A DNA stretch of 53,433 nucleotides, filler included, from Nitrospiraceae bacterium (GTDB lineage Bacteria > Nitrospirota > Nitrospiria > Nitrospirales > UBA2166): NCBI GenBank assembly GCA_002726235.1. It is 3 parts of 3 records of this genome, joined end to end, with 100 filler letters (N's around TTAATTAATTAA, not from the genome) between each part and the next. Parts side by side here need not be neighbours in the genome. Positions count along the whole stretch, not along the records: positions 30,463 to 43,265 come from PBSN01000026.1; positions 43,366 to 53,433 come from PBSN01000027.1; 1 more part is not named here. One strand, 5' to 3'. Numbering within the stretch: position 1 is the first letter of the stretch; the number at the start of each line of letters is the position of its first letter. Made by a program: the position numbers. This document shows positions 43,098-53,433 of this stretch, piece by piece.

Positions 43098-46000
43098 TAA
43101 ATTTTATACTTAAAATAATTTATTAAAAAATTAATTTAATTAAATTTTTAATAAATAAATTGAGAATGATTATAAATTTATATCATATTTCTCCTTATTC
43201 TTTTTATAACAATCATAAAATTCACTTAAAGTTAAATCCTTTAATTTTTTCATTTCACCATCATCNNNNNNNNNNNNNNNNNNNNNNNNNNNNNNNNNNN
43301 NNNNNNNNNTTAATTAATTAANNNNNNNNNNNNNNNNNNNNNNNNNNNNNNNNNNNNNNNNNNNNGCTCACCGGGGTGGGCGCAACCATCGCTGCCGGCA
43401 ACCAACTGTGAAAGGGCATAATCGCAGCTTTGGCTAACCCCGCGATAAACAAAACGTAAATGATCGTAAGCAGGATGGGCGCATCGACACCTGCGAAAAC
43501 TCCACCTCGTTGGAACTCCAAGGTTCCTGTCAGGGTGTAGGTAAGAACGACTGCAGCGAGGAAGAAGCTTTTCGACGCTCCGACCAGGTAGATGAGATAC
43601 ATCTTCCCGCCTTTCCAGGCTTCCGCGGTCTGCTTGTGCATGACCAGAGGATAGGTGGAGAGGCTGAGAATTTCGTAGAACAAAAAGAGCGTAAAGAGAT
43701 TCGAGGCAAACGCAACTCCTATTGTCGAGGAAAGCGCAATAGCGAAACAGGCATAAAATCTCGTCTGTGCATGCTCATTGAGACCGCGCATGTAGCCGAT
43801 CGAATAGATAGTGGCAAGTATCCATAAAAATGACGCGGTGGTGGCAAAGAGTAGTCCCAACGCATCCGCACGAAAACTGATACTGATCCCGGGAAGCAGT
43901 GTTACCAGCGTAAATTCAATAACTCCGCCGGCCAACACCGCAGGTGCCATCGACAGAACAATTAGAAACTTAATGATGCCGGCACCGATAGAGAACGATT
44001 CTCGAAGATTAGGGCTATGCCGAGCGTATACAATAAGCAACGCTGCGATAGCAGAAACTGTGAGGGCAAGAACCGGTTTTATGGAGACAATAGATTCCAT
44101 GTCGAGTTACCTCTGACCTCTGATCCCTACCATTTCAACAAGTTCAATTGATCAACGTTCGTCGCGATCTTGCGGCGGAAGACGACGATAATGATGGCTA
44201 GTCCGATGGCCGCTTCTCCCGCAGCAATGGCAATGACGAAGATTGCCGCTATTTGTCCATCCAAGGCATCGAAGTAGGAGGCGAACGCGACGAGATTAAT
44301 ATTTGCGGCATTCAACATAATCTCGATGGACATGAAGATGATGATAAAGTTTCGTCGAATGAGAACACCGACGAGTCCAATTACAAACAGGATTGTGGCC
44401 ACTGCCACGTAGTAGGATAAAGGGATCATGGTTTGTCAGAAGAATCGTATTGCCGGGCAATCGGAGTTTTGGCCAGGACGATAGCTCCGATAATCGCTCC
44501 AAGTAGAAATACCGCAATGATTTCAAATTGAAGCAGAAAATCGTTAAATATTGTAATTCCGACTGCTTTCGTGTGACCGACGAAACCAATCACTTCAGGG
44601 GTCGCGTTTCCGCTGAGGCTTGCAAAGGGACTGCTCAAGAGCATCAGTAAAAAGACTCCTCCAACTCCGGCTGTGACAAATGCGATCACCGCAGTGCGTT
44701 GATGAAATACCCGCTCTTCTGTTTTAAGATTGAGCAGCATGAGTACAAAGAGATAGAGCACAAGGATGGCTCCGGCATAGACAATGATCTGGACCATCGC
44801 AAGAAACTCTGAGTTCAACAGAATGAAGAATCCCGCAACGTGGAGAAGAAGGGTAAGTAGTGCTAGTCCGCAGTGCACTGGATTTCTGAGTGCAACGGTC
44901 AATATCCCCGAAGCGATACTTATCAAAGCAAGGTAGGCAAAGAAGAATGTGGTCATTTCAAAATCGTTGTTAGGCCTTCGGTTCTGGTGAAGTAGACTCT
45001 AAACTTGGTGCGGGCGTGACAACTGCAGTTTTTTCTGCCGCGCTGGGCGAGCCTGTGTCAGGCGTTTTGGCGATGGCTACTGGCGCTTCCGACTTGGGTA
45101 CAGTGTCTACGTCAATAGGCTCGTCTTCACTCGGAGGAGTTAAAGTTTGATATGGCGACTGCATCTCGACGGTGGGAGATGGGAAGCGATAGCGATATCG
45201 TTCCCACATTTCGTCGTCGACCTCTTGGTTGTGGACAAAGAGATACTTTTTGGAATCCTCAAGAAAACGCTCCCCGATCGCGTAGAGTTTCTTTTTGTCA
45301 AAGATGAGGGCGCGTTTGTCTGTCGTTGAATATTCGTATTCCTTTGTCATCGCAAGTGCATTGACAGGGCAGGCTTCAACGCAATAGCCGCAAAACACAC
45401 ACTTTGTAATATCAATATAGAATTCCTTCGCATGGCGAAGCAATGGGTTTGGTGCATCAGGCCCGGCGGGCTCACTCACGACTTTTATGCAGTGTGATGG
45501 ACAGGCCGCTTCACACAAATCACACCCGACGCACCGTTCTTCGCCTATTTTCCCTTCACCTTTATCGTATCGCAGTAAACCAAGGGCGCCACGATGGGCA
45601 TCAGGAATAATTCGTTTCTCACGCGGGTATTGAAAAGTCACCTCTCTCATAAACATGTGCTTGAAGGGTACTTTCATCGCAGTCCAGATTTCTCGAAACA
45701 AAACTGCGTCAAAAAACTTCTTTATGGGTCCTTCGCGTGCGGATTTTTGCATCTTGTGTCTTTATGCGGTTATTTTTCGGGTATCTCAGGTTTCGTCGTG
45801 TCCCCTTTGGGAGCATGTGCGGTGCTTGGGAGCCCATGTTTTTCTAACGTGACTGGGCCGGATTTGAACGCGGGAACGCCAGTCACCGCATCTGTCGTGC
45901 AGGCGATTAAATCCTTGAGTGAAGGATTGGAAAAATGTTCTGGGAAGAAGGTTAGGCCTGTGGGCAATGAGTCATCGACTCGAAAGGACATTTCAACACA

Positions 46001-52000: not shown

Positions 52001-53433
52001 ACCTTGTAGCGGGAAGTCTTTGCGTAGAGGGTACCCTTCAGGGTAGTCGTCAGGAAGGAGGATTCGGCGGAGATCAGGGTGATTGTCGAAACGGATACCC
52101 ATCATGTCAAAGACTTCTCTCTCCATAAATTCGGCCCCTTTCCAGATATCCACCATGGAATCGAGACGCGGGTCGGATTCTGGAATTCGAGTTTTTACTC
52201 GTATGCGGTGACGCTTTGGAATGGAATAGACCTCGTAGACGACTTCAAATCTCTCAGGATCGTTTGGCCAGTCCACGGAACTTACGTGAACCATGTAATC
52301 GCAGGCCATCTCGGGATCGTCGCGGAGAAATTGGCACACCTTGTGGATCGATTCACGTTTGACGCTGGCGGTCACTTCTCCTAGGTATTCCATCATAACG
52401 GCTTCCGGAAATCGTTCTTTTATGCGGGCCGAAAGTGGATGCATTACCCTTCCATGCTGACTTCTTTGGGTTGTTTAGTGAACACTCGGCGACGCATGAT
52501 TTCGTCCTGAAGTTTGAGTATGCCATCGAAGAGTGCTTCTGGCGTTGGTGGACATCCAGGCACATACATGTCAACCGGAACAATGCGATCGACACCTTGG
52601 ACCACAGGATAACTATCGTAAATATTTCCTGAGGTCGCGCACGAGCCCATCGAAATCACATACTTTGGTTCGGGCATCTGGTCGTATACCTTTCGAACCA
52701 CAGGGGCCATGCGACGACAGACAGTTCCGGCGACGATCATCAGGTCTGATTGACGAGGAGTCCCGCGAAAGATACCGGCGCCAAATCGATCCATGTCATA
52801 TCGGGACGATACCGCTGCCATCATCTCAATGGCACAACAGGCCAGCCCAAAGGTCATCGGCCATAGGGATCCTTTTCGAGCCCAATTTACTGCCCGTTCT
52901 AGGGTCAGAGTGATGACTCCAAGATCTCCAGATTTATCCTGTGGTCCGATATGAATTAATCCCATTCCAATGCCCCTTTCATCCAGGCATAGAAGTAGGC
53001 GACGAAAAACAGACCGATAAAAATCATCATTTCCATCATGCCAATCATCCCGATTTCATTGAATGCTACGGCCCACGGATATAAGAAAATCACTTCGACA
53101 TCGAAGATGACAAATAACATTGCGATGATGTAATACCGAACGGGAAATGGCATTCGAGCATCTGAAATTGGTTCGCTGCCACATTCATAGGTGGTAAGTT
53201 TTTCCGCTTCGGGGTACTTGGGCTGTGCGACGTGGCTGACCAGCAGGGTGCCAGCACCAAACACAAACGCCGCCCCCAAAAATAGGAGGATTGGCAAATA
53301 CTCGGTTAAGTAAGCGATAAGTGAAGGAGAAAGCTCCATGGCTAGACAGCATAGCATTGGCCTTTTTTCTGGTGCAAGCGGATAATGGGCCTATGCCGGT
53401 GCAACGTATGGGCATTATTCCCCCCCCCCCCCC

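What a model noticed while it worked through the whole genome (the two positions that open the first line are those of the whole stretch)
43366..53433. Complex I operon with five antiporter-like subunits, the type reported as unique to manganese-oxidising Manganitrophacea [...]
The NuoCD-unfused '2M' complex I operon of this genome (nuoA-B-C, a diverging B12/radical-SAM gene, nuoD-G-I-J-K on C27, continuing on C17:33797-38902) has its NuoL replaced by a short NuoL/MrpA-like subunit, an 81-aa protein and a 600-aa MrpD-like subunit, followed by two NuoM and one NuoN: five antiporter-like subunits instead of three. I read it as the same hybrid of 'green' and '2M' complex I that was described as Complex_I_3 and thought unique to Ca. 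Manganitrophaceae, serving reverse electron flow from a very high-potential donor to ferredoxin/NADH for the rTCA cycle. New would be that this machine exists in Nitrospirales proper, marking family UBA2166 as a lithoautotroph on an electro [...]
Evidence so far: G000: C27 holds g01748-g01739 = NuoA,B,C,[g01745 reversed],D,G,I,J,K and the first 245 aa of a Proton_antipo_N/M protein cut by the contig end; C17 ends with g01525 (140 aa, 64% to the C-terminus of the MrpD-like gene of G004), g01524 NuoM, g01523 NuoM, g01522 NuoN. In the same-genus genome G004 the whole operon is on one contig: A,B,C,[rSAM],D,G,I,J,K, L' (81% to g01739, 75% to g00208), small (g00209-like), MrpD-like (54% to g00210), M (80%), M (92%), N (88%). 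Closed Nitrospira genomes G006 and G023 have A,B,C,D,G,I,J,K, one ordinary NuoL, M,M,N and no rSAM gene. A second set here (C25:1-1430 + C3:2-5990) reads J,K,L',small,MrpD(g00210, NCBIfam 'Na+/H+ antiporter subunit D'),M,N. PMC9040806 [...]
(Added by a program. Inside this text positions count along the whole contig: they may not be those of the stretch shown here. "Call 12" and the like, gene names such as g00115 and contig names such as C1 are that model's own, and its searches are not shown. The text may have been shortened before it was handed on; [...] marks where a part breaks off. The agent that wrote the report below was given it as the finding of a first reader that could run no searches.)

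Follow-up and report, generated by a model that had tools for sequence, protein, structure and literature searches.

The report
Five-pump complex I in marine Nitrospirales
A marine relative of nitrite-oxidising Nitrospira carries a respiratory complex I gene cluster with five instead of three ion-pumping subunits, a design published as unique to manganese-oxidising bacteria but here built partly from different parts and found in several other lineages.

Summary
Contig C27 (window 43366-53433) reads nuoA,B,C, a reversed B12/radical-SAM gene, nuoD,G,I,J,K and 245 aa of a short antiporter-like gene (L'). The gap to C17 is a collapsed 2612-nt repeat (C3:197-2808: rest of L', an 81-aa gene, most of the MrpD-like D'). 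It has about twice the depth of its flanks and two entries and two exits. So L'-small-D'(+26 aa helix insertion)-M-M-N exists in this genome. A same-genus genome has the whole operon on one contig.

The layout equals Complex_I_3 of Ca. Manganitrophaceae, which I identified by exact protein look-up. It is not a copy. Shared subunits and M+M+N group with the Nitrospirales 2M operon. The L' and D' cores group with this genus's own four-pump 'green' module (AU test p 1e-6).

The layout occurs in 20 of the 37 genomes whose loci I annotated. Those loci were chosen by D' matches in a 401-genome sample of the class; the 20 fall in four families. It also occurs in two 'Deltaproteobacteria' MAG loci. 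It therefore does not mark manganese oxidation.

Reverse electron flow to ferredoxin remains inference.

The parts
52956..53357 (-). nuoA (133 aa)
   Evidence: PF00507, 129.9 bits. 93% identical to the same-genus operon.
52444..52965 (-). nuoB (173 aa)
   Evidence: PF01058, 99.5 bits. 95% identical to G001.
51956..52444 (-). nuoC (162 aa), not fused to nuoD
   Evidence: PF00329, 158.5 bits. The other complex I of the genome, on C4, has a fused CD.
50242..51894 (+). B12-binding/radical-SAM-like gene (550 aa) on the opposite strand. It splits the cluster into nuoABC and nuoDGIJK...
   Evidence: Pfam hits are weak and below cut-off; TIGR04013 gives 28.4 bits. The gene lies between nuoC and nuoD in 4 of 4 same-genus genomes that hold the region. 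Orthologs of 61-70% identity exist in other Nitrospirales. In the 2 of those loci that I looked at (flanks of about 1.5 kb) they are not next to nuo genes.
48759..50039 (-). nuoD (426 aa)
   Evidence: TIGR01962, 541.4 bits against a cut-off of 459.
45770..48574 (-). nuoG (934 aa) with a full-length molybdopterin-oxidoreductase part
   Evidence: Pfam Fer2_4, NADH-G_4Fe-4S_3, Molybdopterin and Molydop_binding. Best NCBIfam hit is Fdh-alpha, 433.9 bits, below its cut-off of 666; NuoG model 324.8 bits, below its cut-off of 470.
44970..45752 (-). nuoI (260 aa) with a C-terminal tail of about 80 aa rich in P, S, T, E and A
   Evidence: Fer4 families. The tail is visible in the translation.
44426..44956 (-). 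nuoJ (176 aa)
   Evidence: PF00499, 119.3 bits.
44127..44429 (-). nuoK (100 aa)
   Evidence: PF00420, 93.9 bits.
43366..44100 (-). L': the first 245 aa of a short antiporter-like subunit of about 488 aa, without a lateral helix, cut by the contig end
   Evidence: Proton_antipo_N and Proton_antipo_M. NF006236 positions 1-249 of 493, 344.6 bits. The full-length G001 ortholog passes that model, 694.4 bits against a cut-off of 663.
43879..43971 (.). 93-nt exact repeat, identical to the end of C25 (the second L' copy)
43553..43642 (.). 90-nt exact repeat, identical to C3:1-90
43366..43446 (.). 81-nt exact repeat, identical to C3:197-277. This is the entry into the collapsed 2612-nt repeat C3:197-2808 that carries the rest of L', the 81-aa gene and D' up to residue 518.
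   Evidence: Logan contig of exactly 2612 nt with about twice the depth of its flanks in runs X1 and X2.

Best explanation
What it is. This is the front part of an operon for a complex-I-type enzyme. It lacks the NADH-oxidising module (no NuoE or NuoF) and has five antiporter-like subunits in place of the usual three. The gene string is nuoA,B,C | rSAM (reversed) | nuoD,G,I,J,K, L' (about 488 aa, no lateral helix), an 81-aa two-helix protein, D' (about 625 aa, MrpD-like, with a lateral helix lengthened by 26 residues), two NuoM and NuoN.

How it is laid out in this assembly. The string is spread over three pieces: C27, a collapsed repeat (C3:197-2808) and C17:33797-38902.

How it arose. The backbone (A-K, M1, M2, N, and the extended helix with the last transmembrane helix) is the Nitrospirales '2M' complex, inherited vertically. 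Its NuoL core has been exchanged for an L'-small-D' cassette of the kind this genus also uses in its four-pump 'green' NADH-linked complex I. That complex is encoded by C4 (nuoA,B,CD,EF,G,H,I) plus C25/C3 (J,K,L',small,D',M,N). In this genome and two congeners, a gene-conversion tract of 2.6 kb has made the cassette cores of the two operons identical. Only the D' C-terminus differs.

How it most likely works (inferred). NuoH is supplied in trans from the only nuoH of the genome. The enzyme most likely runs backwards. It lets about six ions per electron pair flow in, to push electrons from quinol to a low-potential acceptor such as ferredoxin for the reverse TCA cycle.

Shown versus inferred. 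Gene content, repeat structure, homology and phylogeny are shown. Assembly of all five subunits into one complex, the ion-to-electron ratio, the direction and the acceptor are inferred.
For: Gene identities.

The whole operon lies on one 189-kb contig in same-genus G001. D'-M-M-N are contiguous in G003.

Contig ends in G000 lie on exact repeats of 81-99 nt shared between the two operons.

Depth of the repeat in Logan contigs.
- Run X1: one contig equals C3:197-2808 exactly (2612 nt), depth 34.1. The two left paths have depth 14 and 17.4. The two right paths have depth 16.2 and 16.2.
- Run X2: depth 11.0, against 5.1 plus 5.1 on the left and 6.3 on one right path.
- Run X3: a contig leaves the repeat at 2808 into sequence unlike C3.

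The same break points occur in G002 and G004.

The C17 fragment and G001 D' carry a 26-aa insertion plus a 13-aa tail relative to the four-pump D'.

The motif E[KN][YHN][VIM][VI]Y of that insertion is present in 26 of 28 D' genes followed by two nuoM, and in 0 of 24 followed by M,N.

AlphaFold2 model of G001 D': mean pLDDT 83.9. Residues 485-580 form one helix of 96 residues, with pLDDT only 57-74 there. A final transmembrane helix follows at 588-613.

The M1+M2+N tree places this genus as sister to the Nitrospirales 2M operons, 100/100.

Identities of G001 proteins:
- To the 2M operon of G023: A 72, B 87, C 71, D 78, G 55, I 68, J 59, K 76, M1 60, M2 71, N 65 (%).
- To Ca. Manganitrophus noduliformans: A 69, B 85, C 56, D 74, G 48, I 63, J 51, K 66, M1 50, M2 58, N 60 (%).

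The helix-plus-TM16 segment is closest, outside the genus, to the NuoL of 2M operons: 42-50% identity, score 146-194, against 39-42% and 120-136 for Manganitrophaceae.

The D' core lies in a 9-row clade (100/100) with this genus's four-pump D'. Forcing all 14 Nitrospiria five-pump cores together costs 364.9 lnL, p-AU 1.2e-6. L' pairs with the genus's own second L', SH-aLRT 96.

nuoH counts: one in G000, in G001 and in the closed genome G009; two in each of two closed Manganitrophus genomes.

Metabolic context in G000: an ATP-citrate-lyase domain, five sulfite-oxidase-type Mo domains and no NiFe hydrogenase above cut-off.

Energetics are my own reasoning from established bioenergetics: 6 ions per 2 e- at a motive force of 0.15-0.2 V gives 0.45-0.6 V of uphill drive. 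The same figure of 6 ions is stated in PMC9040806.
Against: - The link C27 -> repeat -> C17, rather than C27 -> repeat -> C3's M,N, cannot be read from the assembly graph. It rests on synteny in G001 and G003 and on all other families. In G004 the repeat was assembled onto the A-K front, which fits either pairing. Either way an L'-small-D'(+26)-M-M-N string exists.
- Depths come from Logan contigs, one figure per contig, not from raw reads. X1 and X2 may be the source sample.
- The AU-test group and the motif were defined after I had seen a first tree and the alignment.
- Gene conversion between paralogs can make cores cluster by lineage. A single old origin followed by core replacement is therefore not excluded.
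- The tree of the C-terminal 135 residues did not resolve the place of this genus's D' tail.
- No expression, protein or activity data exist.
- No structure of any green-type or five-pump complex is in the PDB. The best sequence matches are MBH 6cfw_H and MBS 6u8y.
- Five-pump clusters that do carry nuoE, F and H exist (G076, L077). Extra pumps therefore do not by themselves imply ferredoxin or reverse operation.
Confidence: 0.72

Rival explanations
1. Single ancient origin. The five-pump (or D'-type) state is ancestral for class Nitrospiria and was inherited by this genus. Its L' and D' cores were only later overwritten by the resident green-type paralog through gene conversion. On this view the single NuoL of the Nitrospira 2M complex is the derived state.
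For: - D'-type distal subunits with the same insertion motif occur in f1, f5, f10, f14, f15, f16, f18 and f19. NuoL-type occurs only in f2, f3 and f4 among the loci examined.
- The M1+M2+N tree follows the family grouping.
- Conversion is caught in the act in G000, G002 and G004. In G053 the two D' cores are near-identical.
Against: - The trees are unrooted.
- The G001/G003 D' core is nearest to G032 (f6) and a 'Deltaproteobacteria' locus, not to its own paralog. Simple conversion does not explain that.
- The place of the insertion-bearing tail was not resolved.
Confidence: 0.3
2. Assembly or binning artefact. The five-pump string in this genome is a mis-join of two four-pump operons, or of two organisms. 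The real op1 has L',D',M,N.
For: - The operon is in three pieces, and the repeat cannot be spanned by short reads.
- In G004 the A-K front is contiguous with a D' core of the four-pump type.
Against: - The D' C-terminus with the 26-aa insertion is on the same contig as M,M,N in G000 (C17), and both entries into the repeat begin with an L'. L'-small-D'(+26)-M-M-N follows whichever front it joins.
- G001 has the whole string on a 189-kb contig, and G003 has D'-M-M-N.
- All paths have similar depth in X1: 14-17.4.
- Nineteen further genomes in three other families show the same order.
Confidence: 0.05
3. L' and the 81-aa protein are not part of complex I. They form, with D', a separate Mrp-like cation/proton antiporter whose genes merely sit in the nuo cluster.
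For: - The L'-small-D' trio also occurs outside nuo clusters, with short D' forms that lack a lateral helix. One example lies next to an 805-aa reading frame in G013 that I did not scan against any family. Other examples are in G032 and in many Desulfuromonadales and Syntrophomonadaceae loci.
- NCBIfam names both proteins 'cation/H+ antiporter subunit D'.
Against: - In nuo clusters the trio always takes the exact place of nuoL between K and M, and no other nuoL is present there.
- D' there carries a NuoL-like lateral helix and last transmembrane helix. The helix length follows the number of nuoM genes.
Confidence: 0.1

Closest known systems
Complex_I_3 of Ca. Manganitrophaceae (Yu et al., mBio 2022, PMC9040806; passages read)
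   Same: - Gene order A,B,C,D,G,I,J,K, short MrpD-like gene, small gene, long MrpD-like gene, M, M, N.
- No nuoE, F or H.
- A 26-aa insertion with a shared sequence motif in the lateral helix of the long MrpD-like subunit.
- Five antiporter-like subunits.
   Different: - A reversed rSAM gene lies between nuoC and nuoD.
- The backbone proteins are closer to the Nitrospirales 2M operon.
- The L' and D' cores belong to another lineage of these proteins.
- The D' tail is 13 aa longer and resembles the 2M NuoL.
- The host lies in the order of Nitrospira, is marine, and has a genome of 1.9 Mb against 4.2-5.2 Mb.
Nitrospira '2M' complex I (Chadwick et al. 2018). The paper is not held. I know it only through PMC9040806 and PMC12342949.
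   Same: - Unfused nuoC and nuoD.
- No E, F or H.
- Two nuoM.
- An extended lateral helix.
- Sister position in the M1+M2+N tree.
   Different: The single NuoL of 658-669 aa is replaced by L' + an 81-aa protein + D'. This gives five instead of four antiporter-like subunits.
'Green' complex I of rhizobia and others (Degli Esposti and Martinez-Romero 2016; cited in PMC9040806, not read)
   Same: NuoL is replaced by two MrpD-like subunits with a small gene between them. This genome's second set (C4 plus C25/C3) is of this type, and so are loci titled Polaromonas, Moritella and others.
   Different: The green type has one nuoM, keeps nuoE, F and H, and in this genus has a D' of 586 aa without the insertion.
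Mrp antiporters, MBH and MBS (PDB 6cfw, 6u8y, 7qru, 6z16, 7d3u)
   Same: These are the best solved-structure matches of L' and D' by sequence: E 1e-40 for L' and 2e-32 for D'.
   Different: The similarity is distant. No solved structure has this subunit set.

Membership tests
Five-pump complex I (Complex_I_3 layout) | Two MrpD-like genes in the place of nuoL, between nuoK and nuoM | tested here: met
   G001: K, L' (493 aa; NF006236 694.4 bits against 663), small, D' (622 aa; NF009310 730.1 bits against 564). G000: the L' N-terminus on C27, the rest in the repeat C3:197-2808.
Five-pump complex I (Complex_I_3 layout) | Two nuoM and one nuoN directly behind the long MrpD-like gene | tested here: met
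   C17: D' C-terminus, then NuoM 494.5 bits, NuoM 430.3 bits and NuoN 416.2 bits (TIGR models), all on one contig.
Five-pump complex I (Complex_I_3 layout) | A 26-aa insertion in the C-terminal amphipathic helix of the long MrpD-like subunit | tested here: met
   Alignment A1. The motif is shared with Manganitrophaceae. The model shows a 96-residue helix, at low confidence.
Five-pump complex I (Complex_I_3 layout) | Common descent of the MrpD-like pair with that of Manganitrophaceae | tested here: not met
   D' core: AU test p 1.2e-6 against one clade. L' pairs with the genus's own paralog. Later replacement by conversion is not excluded.
Five-pump complex I (Complex_I_3 layout) | All five subunits assemble into one enzyme that moves more ions per electron pair | not testable with these tools
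   No structure, proteome or activity data exist. Nor is this shown for Manganitrophus in the passages read.
Nitrospirales 2M complex I | Unfused C and D, no E, F or H, and two nuoM | tested here: met
Nitrospirales 2M complex I | One NuoL with an extended lateral helix | tested here: not met
   There is no NuoL in the cluster. L'+small+D' stand in its place. Only the extended helix and the last transmembrane helix resemble the 2M NuoL.
Nitrospirales 2M complex I | M1+M2+N group with the 2M operons of Nitrospirales | tested here: met
   Sister group with 100/100 support; 22 rows, 1546 columns.
Green complex I | L'-small-D' followed by a single nuoM and nuoN, with nuoE, F and H present | tested here: not met
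   Not met by this operon. Met by the genome's other set, C4 plus C25/C3.

The most novel reading that the evidence does not exclude
The distal end of complex I is a swappable cassette. The '2M module' (extended helix, last transmembrane helix, M1, M2, N) is inherited vertically through class Nitrospiria. The pump core in front of it is exchanged between three forms: a NuoL, a D' alone, or L'+small+D'. The exchange happens by recombination at the base of the lateral helix. This genome catches such an exchange in progress: a 2.6-kb conversion tract makes the cores of a four-pump NADH-linked complex and a five-pump E/F-less complex identical. Five-pump enzymes therefore arose, or were rebuilt, more than once, including outside the phylum. 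The Nitrospira 2M enzyme may be the derived form rather than the parent.
Probability: 0.5. Interest if true: 0.75.

Novelty: new variant of a known kind. Interest (0 to 1): 0.6.

Why it matters
[quoted passage not shown] This finding removes that restriction. Such a cluster should therefore not be used as a marker of manganese lithotrophy.

The finding also gives a natural experiment. Within one cell, two complexes share identical L'-small-D' cores and differ only in the helix length of D' and the number of NuoM. This isolates the 26-residue helix extension as the part that goes with the extra pump.

For the uncultured marine family it points to a need for strong reverse electron transport. 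That is a lead for finding its electron donor.

My literature searches found no paper that reports this layout outside Manganitrophaceae: in the held library, plus passages of PMC12342949 and PMC11033732. The library lacks most subscription journals.

Tried and rejected
- Complex prediction with L' + D'(1-425) + the 81-aa protein as partner gave no verdict: score 0.27 and 0.17 against a mark of 0.32. It says nothing either way.
- The promoter and terminator scan of 49900-52100 found fewer sites than the shuffles.
- The tree of the last 135 residues of D' and NuoL left the backbone unresolved. It pulled this genus's tail towards its own paralog, because the first 33 residues are shared. I replaced it with a 74-residue comparison.
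- The Chadwick 2018 paper is not held.
- The search for related loci returned 80 of 584 relatives. None was titled Manganitrophus. The family was named instead by exact protein look-up.
- All sequencing runs found are kept as Logan contigs, so no raw-read depth, strand or expression could be read.
- The protein-atlas search for the 81-aa protein found only unnamed 'hypothetical protein' clusters.
- I first took the antiporter-like genes at the end of C22 for a third complex I. They belong to a DabA/DabB-type carbon-uptake cluster.
- Sixteen of the 53 non-congeneric genomes with D' matches were not fetched. Fifteen had matches ending near residue 500 only (short D' type). One had its only match on a contig of about 2.5 kb.

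
Full report
**1. What the window is**

The 53,433-base window is three contigs of one 1.87-Mb, 27-contig genome bin joined by runs of N:
- C22 at 1-30362
- C26 at 30463-43265
- C27 at 43366-53433

The finding is the whole of C27 (10,068 bases, GC 0.49).

**2. Gene content of C27**

Ten reading frames fill the contig. All are on the minus strand except one:
- nuoA, nuoB, nuoC
- a 550-aa gene on the plus strand with weak B12-binding and radical-SAM similarity; both Pfam hits are under their cut-offs, and a CxxxCxxC motif is visible in the translation
- nuoD
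- nuoG (934 aa, with a full molybdopterin-oxidoreductase part)
- nuoI (260 aa, with a low-complexity tail)
- nuoJ, nuoK
- the first 245 residues of an antiporter-like protein, here called L'

L' matches positions 1-249 of the 493-position NCBIfam model NF006236. There is no nuoE, F or H.

The genome has one nuoH. It lies on C4 in a second cluster: nuoA,B,CD(fused),EF(fused),G,H,I, followed by ferrochelatase.

**3. The other pieces**

C17 ends with three features:
- the last 140 residues of a long MrpD-like protein, here called D'
- two NuoM
- one NuoN

C25 begins with nuoJ, nuoK and 74 residues of a second L'. C3 begins with the last 335 residues of an L', followed by an 81-aa gene without any family, a 586-aa D' (NF009310, 730.5 bits), one NuoM and one NuoN.

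The genome therefore holds two sets:
- 'op1': the A-K front on C27 and the M,M,N tail on C17.
- 'op2': C25 plus C3. Together with the C4 cluster it makes a complete four-pump 'green'-type complex I.

**4. Why the contigs break, and what fills the gap**

Every contig end involved lies on an exact repeat shared with the other set:
- The last 93 nt of C25 equal L' nt 130-222 of C27.
- C3:1-90 equals L' nt 459-548 of C27.
- The last 81 nt of C27 equal C3:197-277.
- The last 99 nt of C17 equal C3:2710-2808.

tblastn finds no further L' or D' fragment in the bin.

I laid Logan contigs of four marine runs on C3:1-4000.
- In X1 and X2 (possibly the source sample) one contig covers exactly 197-2808 (2612 nt), with depth 34.1 and 11.0.
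- Left paths: the C3-type path has depth 14 and 5.1. The C27-type path, seen as a joint that skips the 106 differing bases, has depth 17.4 and 5.1.
- Right paths: the C3-type contig has depth 16.2 and 6.3. A second contig that leaves at 2808 has depth 16.2 in X1.
- In X3 a 4610-nt contig runs through 672-2808 and continues for 2473 nt unlike C3.

The segment is thus a repeat with two entries and two exits and about twice the depth of its flanks. The 'missing' part of op1 is identical to C3:197-2808. It holds L' from residue 219, the 81-aa gene, and D' to residue 518.

The shared stretches are in the same frame in both contigs. The paths therefore give an L' of about 488 aa and a D' of about 625 aa.

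Which entry goes with which exit cannot be read from a graph of short words. That part rests on synteny (section 5). Both entries start with an L', and the C17 exit carries D'(tail)-M-M-N on one contig. An L'-small-D'-M-M-N string therefore exists in this genome whichever front it follows.

**5. Congeners**

Four same-genus genomes were found.

- G001 (98% complete, 20 contigs) has on one 189-kb contig: A,B,C,[rSAM reversed],D,G,I,J,K, L' (493 aa), small (80 aa), D' (622 aa), M (524), M (549), N. On another contig it has J,K,L',small,D'(586),M,N behind a divergent CNNM-type gene.
- A named record with the same sequence is titled 'uncultured Nitrospiraceae bacterium' (L020).
- G003 (title of L021: 'Nitrospirales bacterium') has D'-M-M-N contiguous, and a separate L' 89% identical to that of G001.
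- G002 and G004 break at the same places as G000. In G004 the repeat was assembled onto the A-K front, and M,M,N begin another contig.

In G001 and G003 the two D' are only 54-58% identical. In G000, G002 and G004 the cores have evidently been homogenised. I read this as gene conversion from op2 into op1 that left the op1-type D' C-terminus in place.

**6. The D' tail**

Compared with the four-pump D', both the op1 D' of G001 and the C17 fragment of G000 carry a 26-residue insertion in the C-terminal helix and a 13-residue longer end. PMC9040806 reports this trait for 'MrpD2' of Complex_I_3.

Across 68 D' proteins, the insertion motif E[KN][YHN][VIM][VI]Y occurs as follows:
- in 26 of 28 that are followed by two nuoM
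- in 0 of 24 that are followed by M,N

I chose the motif after seeing the alignment, and related sequences are not independent.

An AlphaFold2 model of the G001 D' has mean pLDDT 83.9 and pTM 0.78. It shows one helix from 485 to 580 (96 residues, pLDDT only 57-74) and a last transmembrane helix at 588-613. At 1.5 Å per residue, 26 residues add about 39 Å. That is roughly the width of one antiporter-like subunit; this last figure is from my own knowledge.

**7. Is it Complex_I_3?**

A search of 401 genomes of the class with the G001 D' found matches at E <= 1e-60 in 57 of them. This tally includes the unpublished G286, on which nothing else rests.

I fetched and annotated loci from 36 of the 53 non-congeneric genomes. 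G013 had been fetched earlier. Of the remaining 16, 15 had only short-type matches and one had its only match on a contig of about 2.5 kb. They were not fetched.

Group f15 has genomes of 4.2-5.2 Mb and reads A,B,C,D,G,I,J,K,L',small,D',M,M,N. An exact look-up of its D' proteins returned these names:
- 'Candidatus Manganitrophus noduliformans' (NKE70632.1 / WP_168058870.1)
- 'Ca. Manganitrophus sp. SB1 / morganii' (MCG3112790.1)
- 'Ca. Manganitrophaceae bacterium'

This group is therefore the published Complex_I_3. The layout of op1 is the same, apart from the inserted rSAM gene.

**8. It is not a copy of it**

Proteins of G001's op1 are closer to the Nitrospirales 2M operon than to Ca. M. noduliformans. 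The 2M operon reads A,B,C,D,G,I,J,K,NuoL 658-669 aa,M,M,N in 5 of 5 loci, without rSAM.

| subunit | % identity to 2M operon | % identity to Ca. M. noduliformans |
|---|---|---|
| C | 71 | 56 |
| G | 55 | 48 |
| M1 | 60 | 50 |
| M2 | 71 | 58 |
| N | 65 | 60 |

The trees and comparisons agree:
- A tree of concatenated M1+M2+N (22 rows, 1546 columns) puts this genus as sister to the 2M operons of families f2, f3 and f4 with 100/100 support. Manganitrophaceae sit with f10 and f19 on the other side.
- The 74-residue segment with the insertion and the last helix is, outside the genus, most like the NuoL of 2M operons.
- The D' core goes elsewhere. The tree has 44 rows and 483 columns. Twenty-four rows were left out to save time, three of them because they lacked the motif used for cutting. 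In this tree the core falls in a 9-row clade (100/100) with the genus's own four-pump D', green-type D' of loci titled Nitrospiraceae/Nitrospirae, G032, and a 'Deltaproteobacteria' locus.
- Forcing all 14 Nitrospiria five-pump cores into one clade costs 364.9 log-likelihood units, p-AU 1.2e-6. I named the group after seeing the quick tree.
- L' of op1 pairs with the L' of op2 of the same genome (SH-aLRT 96, quick tree).

The simplest reading is a Nitrospirales 2M backbone whose NuoL core was replaced by the lineage's own L'-small-D' cassette. The join lies at the base of the lateral helix. An older common origin followed by core replacement cannot be excluded. The conversion seen in G000, and the near-identical pair of D' cores in G053, show that such replacement happens.

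**9. How widespread is the layout?**

I counted loci with L', D' and two nuoM in a row on one strand. They occur in 20 of the 37 genomes whose loci I annotated:
- G001 in f1
- 7 genomes in f15 (one with broken frames, two with L' cut by a contig end)
- 9 genomes in f10 (one, G076, with nuoE, F and H in the cluster; one with L' cut)
- 3 genomes in f19

Three further loci are cut too early to tell.

One f10 protein carries the NCBI label 'Ca. Manganitrophaceae bacterium'. Part of f10 may therefore be what the paper calls its marine genus. I did not open the paper's supplements, which could settle this.

Variants:
- f18, f14, f16 and one f10 locus have K (or the small gene), then D',M,M,N without L'.
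- G053 (f5) has L',small,D',M,N,small,D',M,M,N in one row.

Outside the phylum, 2 of 15 named loci that I annotated read (E,F,G,H,I,J)K,L',small,D'(610-612 aa, with a different kind of helix insertion),M,M,N. Both are titled 'Deltaproteobacteria bacterium', from groundwater. In L077 the NCBIfam models confirm L', D', two NuoM and a NuoN. Five pumps are thus neither unique to Manganitrophaceae nor tied to the E/F-less form.

**10. Function**

None of this is measured. The following chain is my inference:
- The cluster lacks the NADH site.
- The genome has one nuoH.
- The genome has an ATP-citrate-lyase domain (rTCA), five sulfite-oxidase-type molybdenum domains and no NiFe hydrogenase above cut-off.
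- PMC12342949 describes the NXR-less marine Nitrospirales family UBA2166 as an rTCA autotroph, possibly in sulfur cycling (passages). I could not verify that this genome belongs to that family.
- The sequence occurs in marine, seawater and hydrothermal-vent metagenomes: 20 rows from 13 studies, two of the rows possibly the source.
- Electrons that enter at cytochrome c or quinol level must be pushed uphill to ferredoxin. Six ions per pair would give 0.45-0.6 V at a motive force of 0.15-0.2 V.

The rSAM gene has orthologs elsewhere in Nitrospirales. In the two such loci I looked at, they are not next to nuo genes. I see no evidence that the rSAM gene belongs to the complex.

**11. Verdict**

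It is wrong in treating the cluster as the same entity as Complex_I_3 and as a marker of lifestyle.

It is a new variant of a known kind. It adds evidence that the distal pump cassette of complex I is exchanged by recombination.

Noticed in passing
window 30463-43265 (contig C26): This 12.8-kb contig has GC 0.255, against 0.45-0.54 for nearly all other contigs of the bin (C24 has 0.372). It carries VIT1, HD-domain, polysaccharide-synthesis and endonuclease/phosphatase genes and a 1328-aa protein with no Pfam family. It is probably a foreign contig in the bin.
   Followed up: partly
window 20262-30361 (end of contig C22): Carbonic anhydrase, a universal stress protein, a 404-aa protein without a family, DabA (1093 aa, 822.5 bits), a 737-aa NuoL-like (DabB-type) protein and a NuoM-like gene cut by the contig end. 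This is an inorganic-carbon uptake cluster, not a third complex I.
   Followed up: partly
L145 (G053:C18:5000-24378): One row reads D,G,I,J,K,L',small,D'(590),M,N,small,D'(639),M,M,N: eight antiporter-like genes behind one front. The two D' have identical N-termini. These may be two alternative membrane-arm cassettes for one peripheral arm.
   Followed up: no
L180 (G076:C11:78700-98699): A cluster with nuoE, F and H, and L',small,D'(623 aa),M,M,N: a five-pump complex I that keeps the NADH module.
   Followed up: no
L077 and L037 (records titled 'Deltaproteobacteria bacterium', groundwater): Five antiporter-like genes (L',small,D',M,M,N) outside Nitrospirota. The D' helix insertion is of another sequence type, resembling a tandem repeat of the preceding 'FD..V.DG.VN' stretch.
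   Followed up: partly
L134, L135, L156, L039, L137, L138, L160: Families f18 and f14 and one f10 genome have A,B,C,D,G,I,J,K, then D' directly (no L'), then M,M,N. This is a 2M complex with a D'-type distal subunit.
   Followed up: no
L003:1018-1263 and 40 homologs in other loci: The 81-aa gene between L' and D' is a conserved protein with two hydrophobic stretches and the C-terminal motif (K/R)xE(D/N)(Y/F)YD. It has no Pfam or NCBIfam family and appears only in unnamed Atlas clusters. It is absent from the five-pump clusters of f10 and f19, where L' abuts D'.
   Followed up: partly
window 44970-45752 and 45770-48574: NuoI has a tail of about 80 residues rich in P, S, T, E and A. NuoG scores higher on the formate-dehydrogenase alpha model (433.9 bits) than on the NuoG model (324.8 bits), both under their cut-offs. 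Whether NuoG binds a molybdenum cofactor was not examined.
   Followed up: no
G004:C11:4937-6574 (L202): The rSAM ortholog of G004 has one TAA inside the match. This is either a sequencing error or a broken gene.
   Followed up: no
L018 (G013:C10): L', small and a short D' (526 aa, no lateral helix) lie directly behind an 805-aa reading frame, away from any nuo gene. I did not scan that frame against any family. The cassette thus also exists outside complex I.
   Followed up: no
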